This document shows positions 1-13,515 of a stretch of DNA of 13,515 nucleotides, piece after piece. The translations under genes and the position numbers were made by a program. The stretch spans positions 1 to 13,515 of the IMG/VR virus record IMGVR_UViG_3300028952_000008; one strand, written 5' to 3'. Each line of letters starts with the position of its first letter. Position 1 is the stretch's first letter. Below the pieces are notes generated by a model, which was not told where the DNA came from, searched no databases, and saw only the letters and a list, made by a program, of their open reading frames with translations. This DNA is from a virus. Its lineage: Duplodnaviria > Heunggongvirae > Uroviricota > Caudoviricetes.

Positions 1-1678
1 TCAGCGTCTGCCCGTTCCATACCGGCATACAGCGCATCGCCGAGCAGAAATCACTGAGCACATCCCACGCCTTACGCTGCGTGGTCAGCCAGGCATTACA
101 GGTGATGCGCGGCTCCGTGCCGCCAAAGCCGTCCGGCACCGACTGGTCGCAGTACTGGCCGATGACATACAGCGCCCATTTATCCACATCCGACGCACCA
201 AGACGTTTTCCCATGCCGTAGCGCGGATGGGTCAGCATATCCCACAGACACCAGGCCATGTTGTTGCTGTATGCTGGCTTAAACGTTCCGTCCCAGATAC
301 CGCTGTATTGTCGCGTCTGCGGGTTATAGTTCGACGGCACCTGCAGAATGCGCCCGCGAAGATGATAATTACGACTCACCTGCTGGCTGCCGAACTGCTC
401 CGAGTCCACCTGTACGCCGACCAGTGCCGTGTTCGGGTAGCACTGTTTCACATCGATGATTTCGGTGTATGACGACCAGAGCGTTTTGTTCTGCAGCTGG
501 TCTGTGGTGCTGTCCGGCGTCATCCTGCGCATCCGGATATTAAACGGGCGCGGCGGCAGGTTATCCACCACCACCGAGGCCAGATACTGCGAGGTGGTTT
601 TGCCTTTAATGGTGATGTCTTTTTCCGTCACCCAGCCACCGTTACGCTGTATCTGAACCAGCAGGCGGACTTCCGACGGATTCCGGTCCCCCTTTGAGGT
701 GGTTTCCACCAGTGCCTGCACACCGAAGGTAAAGCGCAGACGGTCGATGTTTGCAGACGTGATGGTCCGGGTAATCGGCGTGTCGTACTTCACTTCCGTA
801 CCCAGCACCGTCTCGGAGCCGGAGGATTCAAATCCCTCCGGCGGTGTCTGCTCCTGCTCACCGGCCCGGAACACCACCGTGACACCGGAGATATTGGTAT
901 TCCCCTCCCCGCCATGCATGATCTCCACCATGCGCTGCGTCATTCGGACAAATCCATTTTCAATAGCCTGCTGATAATCAATGATCACCAGCGCCGACTC
1001 CTCGAAAAGGCACTGAATTTCAGCGGGGGCATGAGCGTAATAGTCCGCAATTCTGCTGAAATTAAACACCGTGTGACGTTCTGCCGCACACAGGAGGAAT
1101 TTCTCAATATCAGGATCAAGGGACGCCGAACGTATCCGGCTGATCAGCTCCTGAGTTTTCGTATCGTCGTACAGTTCACTGATATCCGGTTTACCGCCCG
1201 ACGGCTCATAAACAGGCGTATCAATTTTCGTCGTATACGGCTCCTCCTTATTTCCTATACCGGGCAAAACATCCGTCAACAGTTCATCAATTTCTGTCGG
1301 GCCGAAGCCTGTCAGGGAGACATCAAAATCAGCATTGATTAGGACCGACAGCTCCATCCGCAACAGATCTTCATCCCAGCCAGCATTCATCGGTAGGCGA
1401 TTATCTGCCAAGCGGTACGCCTTTTTCTGCTCATCCGTCAGGCCAGACAGAACAATGACCGGAACAGAATCCATTTTGAGCATTTCAGCCGCCATAACAC
1501 GACCGTGACCCGCAATAATTTCGCCCTTTTCGTCAATCAGCACCGGATTAGTCCAGCCGAATTGCTTAATACTTTCTACCAGTTGTGCCACCTGCTCAGT
1601 ACTGTGCGTCCTGGCGTTGTGCGCATACGGTGACAATTCTTGTAATGGGCGATAGACTATCTTTAATTTCTCGCTCAT
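1..1678 (-). CDS. Chimeric ORF, 3'-truncated by the window edge: N-terminal ParB-like nuclease domain fused in frame to a lambda J-like tail tip / host-specificity protein segment (J-like part about nt 2-908)
   Basis: Hand translation from ATG at 1676-1678 (SD AAGG about 5 nt upstream) gives MSEKLKIVYRPLQELSPYAHNARTHSTEQVAQLVESIKQFGWTNPVLIDEKGEIIAGHGR..., a ParB/sulfiredoxin-type N-terminal motif. The frame stays open to ...EGNTNISGVTVVFRAGEQEQTPPEGFESSGSETVLGTEVKYDTPITRTITSANIDRLRFTFGVQALVETTSKGDRNPSEVRL..., which I recognise as phage lambda J from about residue 57. The frame was translated without a stop from 1678 down to about 661 and spot-checked at nt 2-58 (...LSDFCSAMRCMPVWNGQTL); nt 59-660 were not translated and continuity there is assumed. 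Absent from the ORF track because no stop lies inside the window. Confidence 0.75.
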   Translation of the reverse strand, partial: MSEKLKIVYRPLQELSPYAHNARTHSTEQVAQLVESIKQFGWTNPVLIDEKGEIIAGHGRVMAAEMLKMDSVPVIVLSGLTDEQKKAYRLADNRLPMNAGWDEDLLRMELSVLINADFDVSLTGFGPTEIDELLTDVLPGIGNKEEPYTTKIDTPVYEPSGGKPDISELYDDTKTQELISRIRSASLDPDIEKFLLCAAERHTVFNFSRIADYYAHAPAEIQCLFEESALVIIDYQQAIENGFVRMTQRMVEIMHGGEGNTNISGVTVVFRAGEQEQTPPEGFESSGSETVLGTEVKYDTPITRTITSANIDRLRFTFGVQALVETTSKGDRNPSEVRLLVQIQRNGGWVTEKDITIKGKTTSQYLASVVVDNLPPRPFNIRMRRMTPDSTTDQLQNKTLWSSYTEIIDVKQCYPNTALVGVQVDSEQFGSQQVSRNYHLRGRILQVPSNYNPQTRQYSGIWDGTFKPAYSNNMAWCLWDMLTHPRYGMGKRLGASDVDKWALYVIGQYCDQSVPDGFGGTEPRITCNAWLTTQRKAWDVLSDFCSAMRCMPVWNGQTL

Positions 1679-3410: not shown

Positions 3411-3875
3411 TTACTTTAAACACTGTTCGGTTATGTATTGCTGAGCACCTTCAAGTTGGGCCTGCATCATTACCAGTCGTTCCCGGAGGGTGAAATAATC
3501 CCGTTCAGCGGTGTCTGCCAGTCTGGGGGAGACTGCATTATCCACGCTGGAGGTGGCGGTGGCTTCACGCACTGACTGACAGACTGCTTTGATGCGCAAC
3601 CGACGACGACCAGCGGCAACATCATCACGCAGAGCATCATTTTCAGCTTTCGCATCAGCTAACTCCTTCAGGTATTTTGCATCGAGTGCAGCAACATCAC
3701 GCTGGCGTATCTGCATGTCAGTAATGATTGCGGTCGCCTGGTTGAGTTTTTCCGTCACATTATCGCGTTGCGCTTTGTAGGTAATGGCATTATCACGGTA
3801 ATGATTAACAGCCCATGACAGGCAGACGATGATGCAGATAACCAGAGCATAAATAATCACGGCAACTCTGCTCAC
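3411..3875 (-). CDS. rzpR: Rz i-spanin (inner-membrane spanin subunit)
   Basis: Translation ...[38 protein letters not shown]...[14 protein letters not shown]... closely resembles lambda Rz. The ORF-track start at 3890 is a TTG; a GTG at 3873-3875 overlaps the endolysin stop (GTGA) and gives a lambda-Rz-like length of 154 aa. Confidence 0.85.
3470..3655 (-). CDS. rzoR: Rz1 o-spanin lipoprotein, embedded in the +1 frame of Rz
   Basis: [61 protein letters not shown]: lipobox LVVVGC followed by a proline-rich stretch, wholly inside the Rz gene in another frame, as in lambda Rz1. Confidence 0.85.
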
Positions 3876-4405
3876 TGCTCTATCCCCCAACAGGCTAATG
3901 CGCTCTCCTGATCACGACGAATAACCTGACCGTAACAGTTATTTGAACGAAGGCGGCAATCGCGCCCCCTGTCCTTAATCCACCAGCGAATCGCCTCGCA
4001 GGCACCTTTACGATCACCTGCATTCAGCCGCTTATAAAATGTCGACGGAAAACACTTAGCGGGGCCAATGTTATAGGGACAAAATGACGCGATACCCGCT
4101 TTTTGTGGTTCGGTCAGTGTTACTTTAATATTGCGATCCACCCATGCCAGCGCCTTATCACGCTCAATGGCATTAACCTGATCGCATTTTTCCTTCGTCA
4201 GCCTCATTCCCGGTATGACGGGCTTACCATCCACCATTGTGGCACCACGACAGATGGTCCATATACCGGAACCATCGCGGTATGCCGTTGTGTGGTTACC
4301 TTCTTTTTCATCCAGAAACTGGTCGAGAATATCAGGCGCAGGCGCACCGACGGCAATCAGTGCCAGAACGGCAGCCGACAGGCCGTATCTGATTTTTGCG
4401 TTCAT
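3872..4405 (-). CDS. SAR endolysin (T4-lysozyme-like muramidase with N-terminal signal-arrest-release domain, phage 21 R type)
   Basis: 177 aa; N-terminal Ala/Gly-rich weakly hydrophobic segment [24 protein letters not shown], then E-x8-D-x5-T catalytic spacing ([18 protein letters not shown]) as in the phage 21 SAR endolysin. Partner pinholin lies upstream. Confidence 0.85.
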
Positions 4406-4510
4406 GGATATTTATCAGGATTTATCGGTTTCTGAACCCTGGATATGTTTATCTGTCCCGGCCTGTTGAATCAGGCAAGGAATAGTTAAATACAATAGAG
4501 AGGATTATTT

Positions 4511-4783
4511 ATGGACAATAGCACCATTTCTCTACAGGAGTTGCTCGACTGCATTTCCAGGCTTCGGGATGATGTAAATGCCCTTACTGTCGCATTTTCA
4601 TATCTGGCATTCTCAATTCCCAAGGAACAAATGCAACCAACACTGGCATCGCTCCAGCTTGAATCACTCAACCCCAAATGGTCCCAGCAACAACAAAATT
4701 CTTTCAAGTGGCTGGCGGTATTACTGGAAGAAAAATATGCTGGTGAAATTACCATTTCGGCGGAGTCTTCAGTGAACCAGTAA
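4511..4783 (+). CDS. Hypothetical 90-aa protein encoded antisense to the lysis cassette
   Basis: ATG at 4511 preceded by GAGGA about 8 nt upstream; protein-like composition (MDNSTISLQELLDCISRLRDDVNALTVAFSYLAFSIPKEQMQ...). Fills an otherwise unexplained ~340-bp gap between the endolysin start and the upstream gene's stop. Overlaps the 3' end of ORF 4749..5093 convergently by about 35 nt. Confidence 0.4.
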   Translation: MDNSTISLQELLDCISRLRDDVNALTVAFSYLAFSIPKEQMQPTLASLQLESLNPKWSQQQQNSFKWLAVLLEEKYAGEITISAESSVNQ

Positions 4784-5093
4784 TTCTTCCCGGCAGTTTT
4801 CCTTTGTAGGTTATCCGCACACCCTGCGCCTCTAAAATTATGGGGCGCTTTTCCGGTGACTGCTCATCCCCTTCACATAACCCGGCAGCAACATCCAGGA
4901 AGACCTGTCTGATGCTTCTTCTGGCTGCTGCCTCATAAAACTCCAGCGCGGCACCTTCAACACGGTCCAGCGAGATGTCCAGGTCTAAAATTTCACCGTC
5001 AAAGCGTTTTTTGTCCCGTAACGCTAAAGTTACCGTAACTTTATTCTCAAAATTGCGGATCCCTTTCACAATCAGTTCATAGTTTTGAGTCAT
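4749..5093 (-). CDS. Hypothetical 114-aa protein between holin and endolysin (YdfR/DUF1327-like by position)
   Basis: ATG at 5093 lies 4 nt after the holin stop, with the holin C-terminal codons GGAGAG acting as SD (translational coupling). Soluble-looking protein MTQNYELIVKGIRNFENKVTVTLALRDKK.... The family assignment is from recalled gene order in the Qin prophage (essQ-ydfR-rrrQ), not from sequence identity. Confidence 0.6.
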   Translation of the reverse strand: MTQNYELIVKGIRNFENKVTVTLALRDKKRFDGEILDLDISLDRVEGAALEFYEAAARRSIRQVFLDVAAGLCEGDEQSPEKRPIILEAQGVRITYKGKLPGRITGSLKTPPKW

Positions 5094-5097
5094 TGAA

Positions 5098-5304
5098 TTA
5101 CTCTCCCCGTGCAGCCTTACGCTTATCTTCTTTAATCTTGAAATAAAGATTTGTCAGATACGTCAACAGGCCAAACACCAGACTACCCAGCACACCTATT
5201 GCTGCCCACTGTGAGGGCGTGACTCTATCGAGCAACTGTAAAAACCAGTAGCCAGCACTGCCTGCGGAGGTGCCATAGGCGACACCTGTTGTTAACTTAT
5301 CCAT
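5098..5304 (-). CDS. Class II holin, pinholin of the phage 21 S type
   Basis: 68 aa [68 protein letters not shown]: two TM segments plus a charged C-terminus, near-identical to the S21 pinholin as I recall it. An in-frame TAA two codons upstream rules out a longer antiholin form. Confidence 0.88.
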
Positions 5305-5364
5305 GGATTAAGGACCACCAGCCCAAGCTCAGGCACCAGAACAGGTCTAAGTAATACCCGCACG

Positions 5365-5637
5365 TTACCTCCAGATCCGTTGCTGGAAAGTGCGGGACGG
5401 ACGTGGTGGGCGTTCGGAATAAGGCAGCCTGACAGAGATTATCCAGTGCCGATAGTCGAGACTGAGAGCTTTCTTAACCTCGAACCCGCGCCTGCGGTAA
5501 GAATGAATCAGCCATTCGGCCTGTTCTTCAGTACATGGTGGGTGTTGGTACCAGTCGGTTTTAAATGCGTGTGAACGCCGCTCATGCCGGATGGCAAGGT
5601 CGGTATCAGAATTGTGAAATTTGGTTTTGTGCGCCAT
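5365..5637 (-). CDS. Hypothetical 90-aa basic protein immediately upstream of the holin
   Basis: ATG at 5637 with only a weak SD (AGAGAAAACAG-ATG); His/Arg-rich (MAHKTKFHNSDTDLAIRHERRSHAFKTDWYQHPP...). It sits 60 bp upstream of the holin and downstream of a strong terminator. No recognisable family. Confidence 0.4.
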   Translation of the reverse strand: MAHKTKFHNSDTDLAIRHERRSHAFKTDWYQHPPCTEEQAEWLIHSYRRRGFEVKKALSLDYRHWIISVRLPYSERPPRPSRTFQQRIWR

Positions 5638-5707
5638 CTGTTTTCTCTGCTGGCGCAGCAGGTGTCAGGTGTTCAGGCTGACGTGCGAATTGTAAACCAG
5701 AATGCCA

Positions 5708-5736
5708 GGAAAAAACAAAACCCGCCGAAGCGGGTT
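5708..5736 (-). terminator. Rho-independent terminator (hok mRNA 3' end, possibly also a late-operon tR'-like terminator)
   Basis: Minus strand reads AACCCGC-UUCG-GCGGGUU followed by UUGUUUUUUCC: a 7-bp GC-rich stem, tetraloop and U-tract, about 70 nt after the hok stop. Confidence 0.7.
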
Positions 5737-5804
5737 AAGTGCGGGTGCGTTGAGGATGCCTGACACATCAGAGGTGGCGAGGGATTTCTCCCCCGCCAGG
5801 TCTC

Positions 5805-5960
5805 TTACTCCTCAGGTTCGTAAGCTGTGAAGACAGCGACCTCCGTCTGGCCGGTTCGGATTCGTACCTCGCAGAGGTCTTTCCTCGTTACCAGTGCCGT
5901 CACTATGACGGTTAAACAGATGACGATCAGGGCGATTAACATCGCCTTTTGCTGCTTCAT
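5805..5960 (-). CDS. hok: Hok/Gef-family type I toxin (51 aa)
   Basis: Not in the ORF track (<60 aa). Hand translation: MKQQKAMLIALIVICLTVIVTALVTRKDLCEVRIRTGQTEVAVFTAYEPEE, with N-terminal TM helix and conserved C-E...R.G..EVA.F.AYE; SD AAGGAG 9 nt upstream. As I recall, near-identical to HokD/RelF and Gef. Confidence 0.9.
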   Translation of the reverse strand: MKQQKAMLIALIVICLTVIVTALVTRKDLCEVRIRTGQTEVAVFTAYEPEE

Positions 5961-6016
5961 AGCCTGCTTCTCCTTGACCTTTCGGTCCGTAAGAGGCTAA
6001 TCTCTATGTGTCGCAT
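5957..6016 (-). promoter_or_regulatory. hok leader with a translationally coupled 19-codon upstream ORF (mok-like)
   Basis: Minus-strand ATG at 6014-6016 opens MRHIEISLLRTERSRRSRL, ending in TGA that overlaps the hok ATG (ATGA). The uORF start sits in the palindrome TCTATGtgtcgCATAGA (6002-6019). Confidence 0.4.
5974..6003 (+). promoter_or_regulatory. Candidate promoter for a Sok-like antisense RNA
   Basis: Plus-strand TTGACC (5974-5979), 18-bp spacer, TAATCT (5998-6003); a transcript from about 6010 rightward would be antisense to the hok leader and uORF start region. No RNA evidence. Confidence 0.3.
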
Positions 6017-6218
6017 AGATATGGCCTCAGATTAATGTTAAGCGTCTTGCAGGACGCGTAATGTTAACTGGGGCTTTTCTCTATCTGCCTTTTGGTGTTC
6101 ATGCCTGAGACAGATAGCCTCAAGCACCCGCAGTTATTCTACTTAACTAAGATTTCCCCGCAAACCGTTTTTGTCCGGCACAGTAAATATCCAACTAAAC
6201 CAATGGCGTTCGCTGTAT

Positions 6219-6398
6219 TTACCGCCAGTATTCAATGCACATGACCGCCATGAACACCCCTAAAAAAAGGGCATTTATATGTCCAAACATTAATATCAAA
6301 ACATCAATTTTTTCCATATACCTTGCTGTGAAGATGATGGGCATACATGATGCGAACAACCAGAACGCAACAAACAAAAACTGCAATGCGTTTTTCAT
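6219..6398 (-). CDS. Hypothetical small membrane protein (59 aa) in an AT-rich island
   Basis: The ATG at 6398 (not the ORF-track start 6437) has a strong SD AGGGGGA 5 nt upstream. MKNALQFLFVAFWLFASCMPIIFTARYMEKIDVLILMFGHINALFLGVFMAVMCIEYWR has two hydrophobic segments. Surrounding sequence about 6230-6520 is markedly AT-rich. Confidence 0.5.
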   Translation of the reverse strand: MKNALQFLFVAFWLFASCMPIIFTARYMEKIDVLILMFGHINALFLGVFMAVMCIEYWR

Positions 6399-6518
6399 TA
6401 TTCCCCCTACAATCAATGTGCAATAACATTTAAACACACCTCAATTTGGCCGGACATATAAATATCTAAACCAGAAAAAATCACTTACATAGCGTTACAA
6501 ACTCTTTAGTCTAAATAT

Positions 6519-7034
6519 TCATCGTAAAACATCCTCCACGCTTATCAGTCCATTTCGTTTCAGGTAATCTATCGCCTTCTCCGGTAATTTGCAGTCCGGC
6601 TGAGCTTTTTTCAGTTGACTGACCAGTCGTTTAACCCACATTGTTAATTCGCTAACCTGATTGCCGGATGCTGGTGGATTGTCGGCTTTACCCAGAATGG
6701 CAGCGCAGCAGGCCTCTCTGAGCACCCAGTCAACAGCATCCTTCCATGCTCCTGTTTCGACTGGCGGATTCTCACGCTTTACCTGTTCATAAAAGCGCAC
6801 GGCTTTAACCAGTCCTTCTGATGTCACCGGGACTGGCGGGCCGATGAATAAGGCCTGAATTTCATAGTTCGGCCTGTCGTTACAATCCTCTTTTGTCGGT
6901 ACATATTTCCAGTCACCAGCCCACGGCTTCCCCTGAAAGTCTGTAACGTCTTTTTTCACGTAGCGATATCGCCATGCAACTGGTTTTGCCTGCCCTGCCG
7001 TTTCATGCCCTTCCTGATAATTAATCTCGCTCAT
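6519..7034 (-). CDS. Hypothetical 171-aa protein, last gene of a three-gene coupled operon
   Basis: ATG at 7034 overlaps the stop of the upstream 58-aa ORF (ATGA). Long ORF with normal composition (MSEINYQEGHETAGQAKPVAWRYRYVKKDVTDFQGKPWAGDWKYVPTKEDCNDRP...). No recognisable family. Confidence 0.7.
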   Translation of the reverse strand: MSEINYQEGHETAGQAKPVAWRYRYVKKDVTDFQGKPWAGDWKYVPTKEDCNDRPNYEIQALFIGPPVPVTSEGLVKAVRFYEQVKRENPPVETGAWKDAVDWVLREACCAAILGKADNPPASGNQVSELTMWVKRLVSQLKKAQPDCKLPEKAIDYLKRNGLISVEDVLR

Positions 7035-7207
7035 TCATCGCCCCACTCATCACAATATGCTTCGACCGGAGTTTTTCCTGCTTCATAATCATCACGCCAT
7101 GCTTCAGCATCAGCAGCACTGCCACCACGTAACTCTGCATAGTCCATTAACAGTTCATGCCATGCTTCAAAACTGACGTTGTATTTAGTTGAACCAAAAT
7201 CAGCCAT
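7031..7207 (-). CDS. Hypothetical small acidic protein (58 aa)
   Basis: Not in the ORF track. Hand translation MADFGSTKYNVSFEAWHELLMDYAELRGGSAADAEAWRDDYEAGKTPVEAYCDEWGDE; by my count 15 Asp/Glu against 4 Lys/Arg. Its start overlaps the stop of the 60-aa ORF (ATGGCTGA) and its stop overlaps the next start (ATGA). Confidence 0.55.
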   Translation of the reverse strand: MADFGSTKYNVSFEAWHELLMDYAELRGGSAADAEAWRDDYEAGKTPVEAYCDEWGDE

Positions 7208-7382
7208 TTTGCTCTTCCTCTTCGTCTTTTATTTCGTGATGTGAGTAATTGCAGTAGTTAAAGAAAATATCTTTTGCTTCGTCATGTATTTCATCAGGCG
7301 TCGCATCATCATCCACTTCGAATTCATCCTCGAAATCTCCACCGGCTATTTCCGTTTCAATAATTATTTTAAACTTTCGCAT
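7200..7382 (-). CDS. Hypothetical small, extremely acidic protein (60 aa)
   Basis: MRKFKIIIETEIAGGDFEDEFEVDDDATPDEIHDEAKDIFFNYCNYSHHEIKDEEEEQNG; by my count 21 Asp/Glu against 5 Lys/Arg. AT-rich coding sequence. Upstream SD AGGAGG is separated from the ATG by a stable hairpin. Confidence 0.6.
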   Translation of the reverse strand: MRKFKIIIETEIAGGDFEDEFEVDDDATPDEIHDEAKDIFFNYCNYSHHEIKDEEEEQNG

Positions 7383-7388
7383 TTAACT

Positions 7389-7411
7389 ACCGCCCTTTCG
7401 GGCGGCCTCCT
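7389..7411 (-). promoter_or_regulatory. SD-hairpin-start arrangement upstream of the 60-aa acidic ORF
   Basis: mRNA reads 5' CAUCAGGAGG-CCGCCC-GAAA-GGGCGG-UAGUUAA-AUG: a 6-bp GC stem with GNRA loop sits between SD and start codon (linear spacing about 23 nt, about 7 nt if folded). Confidence 0.4.
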
Positions 7412-7475
7412 GATGTTCTGAGGGTGCAGAAATCCCTCCGGTTAAGGATTAAATTTTTAACAGAGCTAAATTTAA

Positions 7476-7832
7476 TTATTCAGTTCTGGATTTTGTCGCC
7501 CTGCGTATCCGCGCTTTCGCGTTACGCTCAATCTGAATTAGCTTTTCTATATTTTTTCGCCTTTCCCGCTCCTCCTGACGCAAGAGCCTTACATCATCTG
7601 CCAGTCTGGTTTCTCTTTTCGCCACAGAGAGCATCCAGTCAAATGGCTCCACAACTGCACCGCAGATTTTACAGCGGACCTGACGCTCTTTTTCGTCAAC
7701 CCGGACAGAGGCGTGATGACAATATGGTCTTTCCGATGGCTCATAAAGAAAATTAACCTGATTACGAGGGTCATCCTCTTTTACCGGAAATAAAACGATA
7801 TTGCTTAACTCATCCTCTGGTTTTATTTCCAT
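7476..7832 (-). CDS. Hypothetical zinc-ribbon protein with a basic coiled C-terminus (118 aa)
   Basis: ATG at 7832 with strong SD GGAGAGGAG. Contains PYCHHASVRVDEKERQVRCKICG (Cys/His cluster with C-x2-C) and an Arg/Lys/Glu-rich tail LLRQEERERRKNIEKLIQIERNAKARIRRATKSRTE. Confidence 0.7.
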   Translation of the reverse strand: MEIKPEDELSNIVLFPVKEDDPRNQVNFLYEPSERPYCHHASVRVDEKERQVRCKICGAVVEPFDWMLSVAKRETRLADDVRLLRQEERERRKNIEKLIQIERNAKARIRRATKSRTE

Positions 7833-7875
7833 GCTCCTCTCCTTTGATGCGAATGCCAGCGGTAATTGAAGCCTN

Positions 7876-7885
7876 NNNNNNNNNA
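7876..7885. other. Assembly gap (10 N)
   Basis: Run of n characters; true length and content unknown. Confidence 0.99.
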
Positions 7886-7896
7886 GCTAATTTCAC

Positions 7897-8319
7897 TCAC
7901 AGTACCGCCTCCTGAAAATTACCCTGATAGAAAGCCAGTACACGCTGCATAGCTTCACTCTTCCGGCACTCGCGACAGATTATGTTTAGGCGACTGTCGT
8001 AGCGACGTATTTCTCCGTCAGGTAACGACCAGATAAGGTCCGGATCAACCACAACCGGTTTCTTCAGCTTTGCCCTCGATAATTTTTTGCGGGCATTTTG
8101 CCAGTCTTTACGAGCCTGTTCAGACGGGAATAACCCGTAGCCAGAATTGTATACATCGCCACTGGCAACCAGCTCTCTGGCCAGAACGCTCATCAGATAT
8201 CTTGTCGCCCCCGTTTTAGCTTCCAGTTGTCGTAACGTCTCTCGCCCGCTCTGGCGTACAAGATCAACAATCTGCCCTTTAATTTTTTCTCGCTCTTCCT
8301 GTGTAAATACTTTTGCCAT
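7897..8319 (-). CDS. Hypothetical 140-aa protein (possible N-terminal helix-turn-helix)
   Basis: The ORF-track start at 8385 is a TTG; the ATG at 8319 has strong SD GGGGAGGG 4 nt upstream, giving MAKVFTQEEREKIKGQIVDLVRQSGRETLRQLEAKTGATRYLMSVLARELV.... The stop is only 12 bp from the assembly gap. Confidence 0.6.
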   Translation of the reverse strand: MAKVFTQEEREKIKGQIVDLVRQSGRETLRQLEAKTGATRYLMSVLARELVASGDVYNSGYGLFPSEQARKDWQNARKKLSRAKLKKPVVVDPDLIWSLPDGEIRRYDSRLNIICRECRKSEAMQRVLAFYQGNFQEAVL

Positions 8320-8335
8320 AAGCCCTCCCCAGGAA

Positions 8336-9061
8336 TCACTTTTCCGACACAATACGACTGGAGGAATCGACAATCTGACGGACAATATCCTGGTGCTTGT
8401 TCAGCTCACGCAGCGCGGCGCAGACTCGCTCCCACTTCTGGACATAACTTTTCGCCCGGCGCAGTTCGCGGTTTGCCATTTGCAGCGATGGTATAATCAG
8501 GTCATTGGCTCGCGTTTCAGTGAACGATGGTAGTGACTGCACAATGTCCCCCACAGTATCTGTTTTAATTTCTTCCTGTGTTGCCGCTTCCTGTACTGGT
8601 AACGCAACACCGGCTGGCTGAGGAAAGCCTTTACCAGGTGTTTTCACTACCGATACAACTTTCGGCTCTGCTGGTAAATTACCGTCCGGCAGGCAGTAAC
8701 GAAATTTACCGTTCTGATTTACGCGAATCAGACGACCTTTGCTGATGGCCATAGCCAGCGATGAGTTCACCCTGCGGGAAGTAATTCTGAATATCAGTGC
8801 AAGTTCATCAGCCGCTTTAGGGCCATGCTGTTCAATCGCCTCGATCAGCATTTGCGCTGTCACTTTAGAAGCCTGTGCTACAGATGCGTTTTCGTCGGTT
8901 TGAGTCAACCACCACATCGGGCCCTTGTTATCAGCTTCCCCACGACGCTTCAGTTTCCACAGCTCGTTAATCGCCTCATCCCGGGTCATTCCCAGACGTG
9001 CTGCCACTTCCTGGGAAGAGGCTTTTCCCATTGCTTTCAGTGCGTCAAAAACGGTCTCCAT
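8336..9061 (-). CDS. Hypothetical 241-aa protein with winged-helix-like N-terminus, directly downstream of ydaV
   Basis: The ORF-track ATG at 9112 would overlap ydaV by 29 nt; the ATG at 9061 follows SD GGGAGG (8-nt spacer), 22 nt after the ydaV stop. METVFDALKAMGKASSQEVAARLGMTRDEAINELWKLKRRG... looks like a wHTH. Position corresponds to ydaW of K-12 Rac as I recall it. Confidence 0.6.
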   Translation of the reverse strand: METVFDALKAMGKASSQEVAARLGMTRDEAINELWKLKRRGEADNKGPMWWLTQTDENASVAQASKVTAQMLIEAIEQHGPKAADELALIFRITSRRVNSSLAMAISKGRLIRVNQNGKFRYCLPDGNLPAEPKVVSVVKTPGKGFPQPAGVALPVQEAATQEEIKTDTVGDIVQSLPSFTETRANDLIIPSLQMANRELRRAKSYVQKWERVCAALRELNKHQDIVRQIVDSSSRIVSEK

Positions 9062-11455: not shown

Positions 11456-11875
11456 ATGGTTCATGAAGATAAAGCGCGTAAAGAGTTCGCCAGTAGGCTT
11501 GCGCTAGCCTGTGAAAACGCTGGTTATGAACAACATGGAAGGCAGGCAGAAATTGCCCGTCGAATGAAATTAACACCAAAAGCGGTTAGCAAATGGTTTA
11601 ATGGTGAAACAATTCCTCGCCGAGAGAAATTAAGGGAATTAGCAACACTCATTGGAACAACACCAACCTATCTTTTGGGAGAGGATACAGAAGAAAGTGG
11701 ACAGATACGTTTCTATCAGGAGTTAAATCCAAGACAAAAAATCATCATTGACCTTCTGGACGAGCTCCCTGACAGTGAGACAGATGAACTTTTAAAAACT
11801 CTTGAGGAGAAAAAACAGAAGTACAATGCAATTTACGAAGAGTTAGCACGAAAGAAAAAACAAAAAGCCTCTTAA
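11456..11875 (+). CDS. racR: XRE-family HTH prophage repressor
   Basis: 139 aa; HTH RQAEIARRMKLTPKAVSKWFNGETIPRREKLRELATLIG near the N-terminus; divergent from the Cro-like ydaS. The only in-frame ATG after the upstream stop is at 11456. Confidence 0.8.
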   Translation: MVHEDKARKEFASRLALACENAGYEQHGRQAEIARRMKLTPKAVSKWFNGETIPRREKLRELATLIGTTPTYLLGEDTEESGQIRFYQELNPRQKIIIDLLDELPDSETDELLKTLEEKKQKYNAIYEELARKKKQKAS

Positions 11876-13254: not shown

Positions 13255-13440
13255 ATGATTGCACATCACTTCGGAACTGATGAAATACCACGTCAGTGTG
13301 TGACTCCTGGCGATTATGTTCTTCATGAAGGCCGGACATATATTGCCTCGGCAAACAATATTAAAAAGCGAAAACTATATATTCGTAACCTGACCACAAA
13401 AACATGCATTACTGACCGGGTAATGACTCCAACTTATTGA
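13255..13440 (+). CDS. kilR: Small protein (61 aa) at the position of KilR (Rac FtsZ/division inhibitor)
   Basis: ATG at 13255 with SD GGAG 6 nt upstream (the ORF-track start 13243 lacks an SD): [61 protein letters not shown]. Assignment rests mainly on position divergent from sieB. Confidence 0.5.
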
Positions 13441-13515
13441 TAGTGTTTTATGTTCAGATAATGCCCGATGACTTTGTCATGCAGCTCCACCGATTTTGAG
13501 AACGACAGCGACTTC

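What the first reader, a model, noticed from the sequence alone, without database searches (positions are those of the whole stretch)
5305..5740. Late-region control is atypical: a strong terminator and an unknown 90-aa gene precede the holin, and no Q/pR' is recognisable
In lambda-like phages Q, pR' and tR' lie immediately upstream of the holin. Here the holin is preceded by a His/Arg-rich 90-aa ORF with only 60 bp between them, and upstream of that by a strong minus-strand terminator (5708-5736) that is also the hok 3' end. I could not recognise a Q antiterminator among the upstream proteins. Either late control uses a divergent regulator (the 118-aa zinc-ribbon or 171-aa proteins are candidates), or the late promoter was lost.
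Basis: inference. Interest (0 to 1): 0.4.

Follow-up and report, generated by a model that had tools for sequence, protein, structure and literature searches.

The report
Deletion scar removed Q and late promoter
The lysis genes of this defective Rac-type E. coli prophage lack a Q antiterminator and late promoter because a recent 4.3-kb deletion cut them out, which is ordinary prophage decay and not a new kind of late-gene control.

Summary
On the minus strand, a hok/sok locus ends in a strong terminator (5736-5709). It is followed by a conserved 90-aa gene (5637-5365), a 60-bp gap and a phage-21-type holin (5304-5098). No Q gene is present.

The cause is a deletion. A near-identical prophage at the same locus in E. 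coli TUM9803 reads hok, the same 90-aa gene, DUF968/ydfU, rusA, Q (PF03589, E=2.7e-50), a conserved terminator-bearing segment just after Q, two accessory genes, then the holin. The window lacks exactly these 4,348 bp. The breakpoint has a 2-nt overlap at 5309/5308.

- The "60-bp spacer" is mostly the first 56 nt of the DUF968 gene.
- The holin has lost its first three codons, which carry the S21-71 antiholin start.
- The junction occurs whole in 1 of 5,426 complete E. coli genomes and in one metagenome contig.
- The 118-aa and 171-aa "candidate regulators" sit upstream of a canonical Q in many other prophages, so they do not replace Q.
- A second deletion fuses a ParB-like gene to tail gene J and removes the virion genes.

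Verdict: a real but ordinary deletion scar in a cryptic prophage. Interest is low.

The parts
5958..6129 (-). sok antisense RNA and hok mRNA leader region of the hok/sok type I toxin-antitoxin locus
   Evidence: Rfam RF01794, 106.7 bits (gathering score 59), E=6.7e-24, full-length model match
5805..5960 (-). hok toxin gene (51 aa)
   Evidence: PF01848 HOK_GEF, E=1.2e-23; annotated as Hok/Gef in TUM10008 and TUM9803
5709..5736 (-). intrinsic terminator at the 3' end of the hok mRNA
   Evidence: 7-pair stem with CUUCGG loop plus T-run; folding energy -13.8 kcal/mol; the identical element lies at L003 1226-1243, upstream of Q, in the intact relative
5365..5637 (-). conserved 90-aa His/Arg-rich gene (phrog_1212, RefSeq WP_023141427.1), function unknown; normally lies between hok (or rem) and DUF968
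   Evidence: phrog_1212, E=4.4e-36. 78% identical to the phage vB_EcoS-640R1 homolog. dN/dS 0.16 against two homologs. Not homologous to K-12 Rem or to the 'rem' of record MN652886.
5292..5363 (-). stub ORF: the GTG start and first 56 nt of the DUF968/ydfU gene, running out of frame across the junction to a TAA inside the holin gene (23 codons)
   Evidence: Window 5363-5308 equals L003 1599-1654, the start of the annotated DUF968 CDS; translation [23 protein letters not shown]
5308..5309 (.). deletion junction with a 2-nt 'AA' overlap; 4,348 bp present in the intact relative are missing here
   Evidence: blastn: window 6554-5308 = L003 408-1654 and window 5309-898 = L003 6001-10413. The junction 80-mer is whole in only 1 of 5,426 genomes and in one metagenome contig.
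5098..5304 (-). phage-21-type pinholin gene, 68-aa form only; the upstream Met-Lys-Ser start of the 71-aa antiholin form is deleted
   Evidence: PF04971, E=4.1e-35. The L003 protein is MKSMDKL... (71 aa) and the window protein is MDKL... (68 aa), otherwise identical.
4749..5093 (-). YdfR/DUF1327 gene of the lysis cassette
   Evidence: PF07041, E=8e-42
3872..4405 (-). lysozyme (endolysin) with a hydrophobic N-terminus
   Evidence: PF00959, E=1.4e-23; the N-terminal sequence [24 protein letters not shown] is read directly from the ORF
3411..3890 (-). Rz-type lysis gene with an Rz1-like ORF (3470-3655) embedded in another frame
   Evidence: ORFs; annotated 'lysis protein' in TUM10008 and TUM9803
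2..1678 (-). second deletion: in-frame fusion of a ParB-like gene to tail gene J, junction near window 898
   Evidence: Homology to the intact relative ends at window 898. Pfam finds ParB_N at residues 23-90 and FNIII-A_GpJ at residues 288-409 of one reading frame. TUM10008 annotates a single 4,020-bp 'gpJ' here, whereas TUM9803 has ParB, terminase and further genes.

Best explanation
The window is a defective Rac-type prophage. Its genes run racR / ydaS-ydaT-ydaU-ydaV-ydaW ... hok ... lysis genes ... trkG, read on the minus strand. An illegitimate recombination event with only 2 nt of overlap deleted 4,348 bp. The deleted block ran from codon 19 of the DUF968/ydfU gene to codon 3 of the holin gene. 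It carried DUF968, rusA, a Q antiterminator of the PF03589 family, the conserved ~105-nt segment immediately downstream of Q (the presumed pR'/qut/tR'), two accessory genes and several terminator-like hairpins.

What remains looks like 'terminator, 90-aa gene, 60 bp, holin'. Nothing replaces Q, because the late transcription unit has lost both its promoter and its activator.

Inferred consequences. The lysis genes can now be transcribed only by read-through from the upstream early-region transcript that contains the 90-aa gene. A Q supplied in trans could not activate them, because the Q-linked segment is gone. The holin would be made only in its 68-aa form, without the 71-aa antiholin. A second deletion has removed the genes from terminase to mid-J, so no virions can be made and late control has no remaining role.
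For: - Intact comparator. TUM9803 (L003) carries hok, the same 90-aa protein (same RefSeq accession WP_023141427.1), DUF968, RusA, an antitermination protein, two hypothetical genes, essD, YdfR, lysozyme, Rz and trkG.
- Flanks. Window 6554-5308 matches L003 408-1654 (98.9%). Window 5309-898 matches L003 6001-10413 with 0 mismatches. All differences from L003 lie at window 5864 or above, so both sides of the junction are identical.
- Deleted genes identified. Q is PF03589, E=2.7e-50, and phrog_127, E=6e-111. DUF968 is PF06147, E=2.4e-76. RusA is PF05866.
- Q-linked segment. Two terminator-like hairpins lie just after Q at L003 3887-3903 and 3934-3953. Homology with other phages covers Q plus about 105 nt downstream and stops there, so this segment travels with Q.
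- Both breakpoints cut inside genes. The DUF968 GTG start and 56 nt are retained, and the holin loses MKS.
- Rarity and reality. The junction 80-mer is whole in only TUM10008 among 5,426 complete genomes, while each half matches separately in about 1,700 genomes, the left half inside ydfU. The same junction is in metagenome contig OAVY01000110.1.
- Candidate regulators coexist with Q in nine other prophages.
- Second deletion.
Against: - No transcription data exist, so whether the orphaned lysis genes are silent or read through is inferred.
- pR' and qut of the intact relative were not mapped. The simple sigma-70 scan called no plus-strand promoter in L003 3854-3960, so their placement rests on position, the terminator-like hairpins and co-conservation with Q.
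- The direction of the event (a deletion here, as opposed to an insertion in the relatives) is inferred. The grounds are the two truncated genes and the 1-in-5,426 frequency.
Confidence: 0.93

Rival explanations
1. Late control here uses a divergent, unrecognised regulator (the 90-, 118- or 171-aa protein) in place of Q, acting at or near the hok terminator.
For: These proteins have no assigned function. The 118-aa protein has a weak, sub-threshold zinc-ribbon match (PF08271, E=1.6e-4, 21.6 bits against a cut-off of 29). Q proteins also bind zinc: the relative's Q has a DnaJ-type CXXC match.
Against: - The exact 171-aa protein, the 118-aa gene and a 92-aa homolog of the 90-aa gene all lie upstream of a canonical DUF968-RusA-Q block in nine other prophages and in TUM9803.
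- None has detectable similarity to Q by BLASTP (E 2.8 to 19) or by Pfam, PHROGs or NCBIfam profiles.
- The junction truncates two genes, which marks a deletion and not a designed arrangement.
Confidence: 0.03
2. The deletion is real, but the lysis cassette is not silent. It has been fused to the transcription unit of the 90-aa gene, giving Q-independent, antiholin-free lysis when the prophage is derepressed.
For: - No terminator-like site lies between 5709 and 4300 on the minus strand.
- The deletion removed three to four terminator-like hairpins that precede the holin in the relative, at L003 5780-5949.
- The stop of the 90-aa gene (TAA) is separated by one base from the stub's GTG, and the stub ends 10 nt past the holin ATG, which would permit translational coupling.
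- A GGTGG motif lies 10 nt upstream of the holin ATG, at a spacing similar to the native GGGGG.
- All lysis genes are intact and identical to those of the intact relative.
Against: - The strong hok terminator lies directly upstream.
- No sigma-70-like promoter was found on the minus strand between 8500 and 4300.
- The zero divergence of the cassette shows the deletion is recent, so its intactness is not evidence of selection.
- There are no expression data.
Confidence: 0.15
3. The adjacency is an assembly artefact, a chimeric join between two prophage regions.
For: E. coli genomes carry many similar lambdoid prophages (median 4 matching places per genome for this segment), which can confuse assemblers.
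Against: The same junction is present in three independent sequences that differ from one another elsewhere: the window, the complete genome of TUM10008 and metagenome contig OAVY01000110.1.
Confidence: 0.01

Closest known systems
Cryptic prophage Rac of E. coli K-12
   Same: Same chromosomal prophage type and gene order: recE, racC, kilR, sieB, ydaF, then a repressor, ydaS, ydaT, ydaU, ydaV, ydaW ... Rz/Rz1, trkG and a ParB-like gene. Both have lost Q and the late promoter by internal deletion.
   Different: K-12 Rac carries a larger, independent deletion that joins a shortened ydaW almost directly to an rzpR pseudogene, so hok, the 90-aa gene, the holin and the lysozyme are also gone. The window keeps all of these and lacks only the 4.35-kb block from DUF968 to the holin start.
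Intact Rac-type prophage of E. coli TUM9803 / CH4796
   Same: 99.4-99.5% identical over 91% of the window. The flanks on both sides of the junction are identical.
   Different: These prophages retain DUF968, rusA, Q, the segment just downstream of Q, two accessory genes, the 71-aa holin start, and the ParB, terminase and further morphogenesis genes.
Qin cryptic prophage of K-12 and the lambdoid Q-dependent late module
   Same: The ancestral order inferred for the window (hok, a small gene, ydfU/DUF968, Q, accessory genes, S21-type holin, ydfR, lysozyme, Rz) is the order seen in Qin: hokD, rem, ydfU, ydfT(Q) ... essQ, ydfR, rrrQ, rzpQ.
   Different: The window has no Q and no ydfU. Its 90-aa gene is not homologous to Qin Rem. 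In other prophages Rem (PF27490) and the 92-aa homolog are two adjacent, separate genes.
Phage 21 lysis cassette (S21 pinholin / SAR endolysin)
   Same: The holin matches PF04971 (phage P21 holin S), followed by a lysozyme with a hydrophobic N-terminus and Rz/Rz1. The relative has the MKSM... dual-start motif that gives S21-71 antiholin and S21-68 holin, as described in PMC7312051.
   Different: In the window the first start codon and its upstream region are deleted, so only the 68-aa form can be made. A DUF1327/YdfR gene lies between the holin and the lysozyme.

Membership tests
Lambdoid Q-dependent late-gene control module | A Q antiterminator gene (PF03589, or one of the other Q families in the libraries searched) upstream of the lysis genes | tested here: not met
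   No Q-family match for any window protein. The intact relative's Q is PF03589, E=2.7e-50, and lies inside the deleted interval.
Lambdoid Q-dependent late-gene control module | A late promoter with Q-utilisation site and a downstream terminator (pR'/qut/tR') between Q and the holin | tested here: not met
   The window has only 60 bp upstream of the holin, and most of that is a DUF968 gene stub. No promoter-like site was found on the minus strand. In the relative, the segment conserved with Q and bearing two terminator-like hairpins (L003 3854-3960) lies inside the deletion.
hok/sok type I toxin-antitoxin locus | Hok/Gef-family toxin ORF | tested here: met
   PF01848, E=1.2e-23
hok/sok type I toxin-antitoxin locus | sok antisense RNA / hok leader structure | tested here: met
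   RF01794, 106.7 bits, above the gathering score of 59
hok/sok type I toxin-antitoxin locus | Stable 3' terminal hairpin / terminator of the hok mRNA | tested here: met
   Hairpin 5736-5719 plus T-run, -13.8 kcal/mol. Pairing of the mRNA's 3' end with its 5' end was not tested.
Phage 21-type pinholin (S21) | Sequence membership in PF04971 | tested here: met
   E=4.1e-35, 120 bits
Phage 21-type pinholin (S21) | Dual-start motif giving the 71-aa antiholin and the 68-aa holin | tested here: not met
   The window begins at MDKL. The relative's MKSMDKL start lies across the breakpoint. The motif is described in PMC7312051.
Rac-type cryptic prophage | Synteny sieB, ydaF, repressor, ydaS, ydaT, ydaU, ydaV, ydaW ... 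Rz/Rz1, trkG | tested here: met
   Annotation of the 99.6%-identical TUM10008 region compared with K-12 Rac. YdaT PF06254 and DUF1391. DUF1627.
phrog_1212 (the 90-aa protein) | Profile match, and conservation as a coding gene | tested here: met
   E=4.4e-36 over residues 25-90; dN/dS 0.16 against two homologs. Function unknown.
Rem (PF27490, K-12 Qin Rem) | Sequence similarity to Rem | tested here: not met
   No BLASTP alignment to K-12 Rem and E=0.26 to the 'rem' of MN652886. No Pfam match. In other prophages the PF27490 Rem gene and the 92-aa homolog are separate neighbours.

The most novel reading that the evidence does not exclude
The deletion may have created a new operon by accident. In this reading the 90-aa gene, a 23-codon stub ORF and an antiholin-less S68 pinholin / lysozyme / Rz cassette are co-transcribed, and perhaps translationally coupled, with the prophage's early region. 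Derepression of the defective prophage would then cause Q-independent lysis without virions, and the lineage would keep this as a suicide or release function.
Probability: 0.08. Interest if true: 0.3.

Novelty: already known. Interest (0 to 1): 0.08.

Why it matters
It matters little beyond correct annotation. The locus is one more example of stepwise decay of a Rac-type cryptic prophage. It should not be used as evidence for a Q-independent late-control system, nor to propose the 90-, 118- or 171-aa proteins as antiterminators.

Two things are mildly useful. The near-identical intact and deleted pair (TUM9803 and TUM10008) is a natural before-and-after comparison for testing what an orphaned pinholin/endolysin cassette does. 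The stub ORF and the truncated holin start should also be flagged in annotation, where the gene is currently called simply essD.

Tried and rejected
- I tested the idea that the 90-aa gene is Rem, as some phage records label the equivalent position. It shows no similarity to K-12 Rem or to the 'rem' of MN652886, and Rem is a separate neighbouring gene in other prophages.
- A literature search for 'LygF', the label attached to the DUF977 gene in phage records, returned mostly unrelated papers (for example fish lysozymes); the Salmonella genome announcements it also listed were not opened.
- A literature search for Rac prophage, trkG and antiterminator found no paper describing this deletion.
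- I looked for a 7-nt AATCCAT repeat as the recombination site. One copy lies 11 nt inside the deleted side, but the observed junction does not use it. Only 'AA' is shared at the breakpoint.
- The simple sigma-70 scan did not identify pR' in the intact relative, so its position is inferred from context only.
Their co-occurrence with a canonical Q had already answered the question asked.

Full report
**What is in the window**

Read on the minus strand, the window is the right arm of a Rac-type prophage of E. coli. The genes run in this order:

- sieB and ydaF
- an HTH repressor (11456-11875, plus strand)
- ydaS-like, ydaT (PF06254), ydaU-like and ydaV (IstB/DnaC-like)
- DUF1627 (ydaW) and DUF977
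- a 118-aa protein, DUF7167, a 58-aa protein, a 171-aa protein and a 72-aa ORF
- hok, then the 90-aa gene
- an S21-type holin, DUF1327/YdfR, lysozyme and Rz/Rz1
- trkG

The window is 99.6% identical over 98% of its length to the Rac locus of E. coli TUM10008. The gene order matches K-12 cryptic prophage Rac.

**Checking the observation**

- The minus-strand hairpin 5736-5719 plus T-run to 5709 is one of only two terminator-like sites in 4300-8500. It folds at -13.8 kcal/mol with a CUUCGG loop.
- It closes a genuine hok/sok locus. Hok is PF01848, E=1.2e-23. Rfam sok RF01794 matches 6129-5958 at 106.7 bits.
- The 90-aa ORF (5637-5365) has 7 His and 13 Arg.
- Exactly 60 bp separate it from the holin ATG at 5304.
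- The holin is PF04971 'phage P21 holin S'.
- No window protein matches any Q family in Pfam, PHROGs or NCBIfam.

**What it really is**

A megablast of window 4400-6100 against 5,426 complete E. coli genomes found the whole stretch in one genome only, TUM10008. In the listed partial hits the match breaks at window ~5309, a few bases upstream of the holin ATG.

The best of those, TUM9803 (L003), shows what normally lies there:

- hok
- the same 90-aa protein (identical RefSeq accession WP_023141427.1)
- DUF968 (1,050 bp) and RusA
- an 'antitermination protein' (822 bp)
- two hypothetical genes
- essD (216 bp), YdfR, lysozyme, Rz, trkG, ParB and terminase

Profile searches confirm the missing genes. 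The 273-aa protein is a Q antiterminator (PF03589, E=2.7e-50; phrog_127, E=6e-111). The others are DUF968 (PF06147) and RusA (PF05866).

Pairwise blastn places the breakpoints exactly. Window 6554-5308 equals L003 408-1654. Window 5309-898 equals L003 6001-10413, with zero mismatches in 4,413 bases. The missing block is 4,348 bp, and the two flanks overlap by two bases, 'AA'. Every difference between the window and TUM9803 or TUM10008 lies at 5864 or above. Both sides of the junction are therefore identical to the intact relative, which points to a recent event.

**Anatomy of the scar**

- The '60-bp spacer' begins one base after the stop of the 90-aa gene, with the GTG start of DUF968.
- It carries the first 56 nt of that gene, then crosses the junction out of frame and stops at a TAA inside the holin gene. 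This is a 23-codon stub at 5363-5292.
- On the other side, the relative's holin begins MKSMDKL (71 aa) and the window's begins MDKL (68 aa).
- This is the dual-start motif of phage 21, in which S21-71 is the antiholin and S21-68 the pinholin (PMC7312051). The longer start and its upstream region are gone.
- Because both breakpoints cut inside genes, this is a deletion here and not an insertion in the relatives.

**Where the late promoter went**

- In TUM9803, the ~105 nt immediately downstream of Q contain two terminator-like hairpins, at 3887-3903 and 3934-3953.
- Similarity to other phages (Evi, mEp460_ev081, vB_EcoS-640R1, an Stx2a phage) covers Q plus these ~105 nt and then stops.
- That is the pattern expected of a Q-specific pR'/qut/tR' segment.
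- I did not map the promoter itself, and the simple sigma-70 scan did not call one there. Its identity is therefore an inference from position and co-conservation.
- The whole segment, and three to four further terminator-like hairpins just upstream of the holin (L003 5780-5949), lie inside the deleted block.

**Is the junction real, and how common is it?**

- An 80-mer across the junction is whole in 1 of 5,426 complete genomes. Its halves match separately in about 1,700 genomes, and the left half lies inside ydfU/DUF968.
- A 32-mer across the junction also occurs in one metagenome contig, OAVY01000110.1. That contig shares window 6554-1 at 99.5% identity, including the second junction described below.
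- The window differs from both records. It has 206 bp at 6555-6760 where they have 55 bp, and its 171-aa gene is intact.
- Three independent sequences therefore carry the scar. It is real, inherited and confined to a narrow lineage.

**The candidate 'divergent regulators'**

- A look-up of the exact 171-aa protein returned ten loci. In the nine that extend far enough, the order is 171-aa protein, hok, Rem (PF27490), a 92-aa homolog of the 90-aa gene (not called as a gene in one locus, L012), DUF968, RusA and Q (PF03589). The 118-aa, DUF7167 and 58-aa genes lie upstream wherever that stretch is intact and not interrupted by a transposase gene.
- These proteins therefore coexist with a canonical Q and do not substitute for it.
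- BLASTP of each against the relative's Q gives nothing (E 2.8 to 19).

The 90-aa gene is a real, conserved gene. It matches phrog_1212, is 78% identical to a phage homolog and has dN/dS of 0.16. It is not Rem, and its function is unknown.

The hok terminator is not special to this locus. The identical element lies upstream of Q in the intact relative.

**How the locus most likely works now (inferred)**

- The lysis cassette has lost its promoter and activator. A Q supplied by another prophage could not act on it, because the Q-linked segment is absent.
- Any expression must come from transcripts that include the 90-aa gene. No terminator-like site lies between 5709 and 4300 on the minus strand, and no promoter-like site was found there either.
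- The 90-aa stop, the stub GTG, the stub stop just past the holin ATG and a GGTGG motif 10 nt upstream of that ATG would permit some translation.
- I consider the cassette mostly silent. A minority reading (about 0.1) is Q-independent lysis on derepression.
- A second deletion fuses a ParB-like gene in frame to tail gene J near window 898, removing the genes from terminase to mid-J. The element cannot make particles whichever reading holds.

**Comparison with known systems, and verdict**

- K-12 Rac lost the same functions through a different, larger deletion that joins ydaW to rzpR.
- K-12 Qin preserves the ancestral order hokD, rem, ydfU, Q ... essQ, ydfR, rrrQ, rzpQ.
- The window is another decay state of a well-known cryptic prophage family.
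- Its 'late promoter was lost' alternative is correct and is now explained to the base. Its 'divergent regulator' alternative is not supported.
- Novelty: already known. Interest: low.

Noticed in passing
window 2-1678 (-), junction near 898: A second internal deletion makes an in-frame fusion of a ParB-like gene (ParB_N at residues 23-90) to tail tip gene J (FNIII-A_GpJ at residues 288-409). It removes terminase, head and most tail genes that are present in TUM9803. RefSeq annotates the fusion in TUM10008 simply as 'gpJ'.
   Followed up: partly
window 5711-7859 and 6555-6760: This segment is 99.7% identical to a different prophage type with lambda-P-type replication (L007) and carries an intact 171-aa gene. 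TUM10008, TUM9803 and the metagenome contig have only about 92% identity at 6761-7110 and have 55 bp in place of the window's 206 bp, which leaves the gene frameshifted there. This suggests a recombinational patch within the deleted lineage.
   Followed up: partly
window 13419-13515: Homology to the intact relatives ends at 13418. In TUM10008 the corresponding bases are the end of an IS1 copy inserted in kilR.
   Followed up: no
window 6219-6437 (-): A 72-aa hydrophobic ORF lies in an AT-rich gap between the 171-aa gene and hok. It has no match in Pfam or PHROGs and may be a small membrane-protein accessory gene.
   Followed up: no
window 4511-4783 (+): A 90-aa ORF lies on the opposite strand inside the lysis cassette. 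It overlaps the 3' end of ydfR and sits in the 343-bp gap before the lysozyme gene. RefSeq annotates it as hypothetical protein WP_000370551.1. It is conserved with the cassette in the relatives.
   Followed up: no
L003 1226-1243 and window 5709-5736: In intact relatives the strong hok terminator lies between the early genes and Q. How early transcription passes it to express Q is not evident, because no N-like gene was recognised in the window and no promoter-like site lies downstream of the terminator.
   Followed up: no
L007-L016, compared with window 5640-5805: Other prophages carry a Rem gene (PF27490, 83 aa) between hok and the 92-aa homolog. The window and TUM9803 lack it, so the hok-to-DUF968 interval varies by whole-gene modules.
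   Followed up: partly
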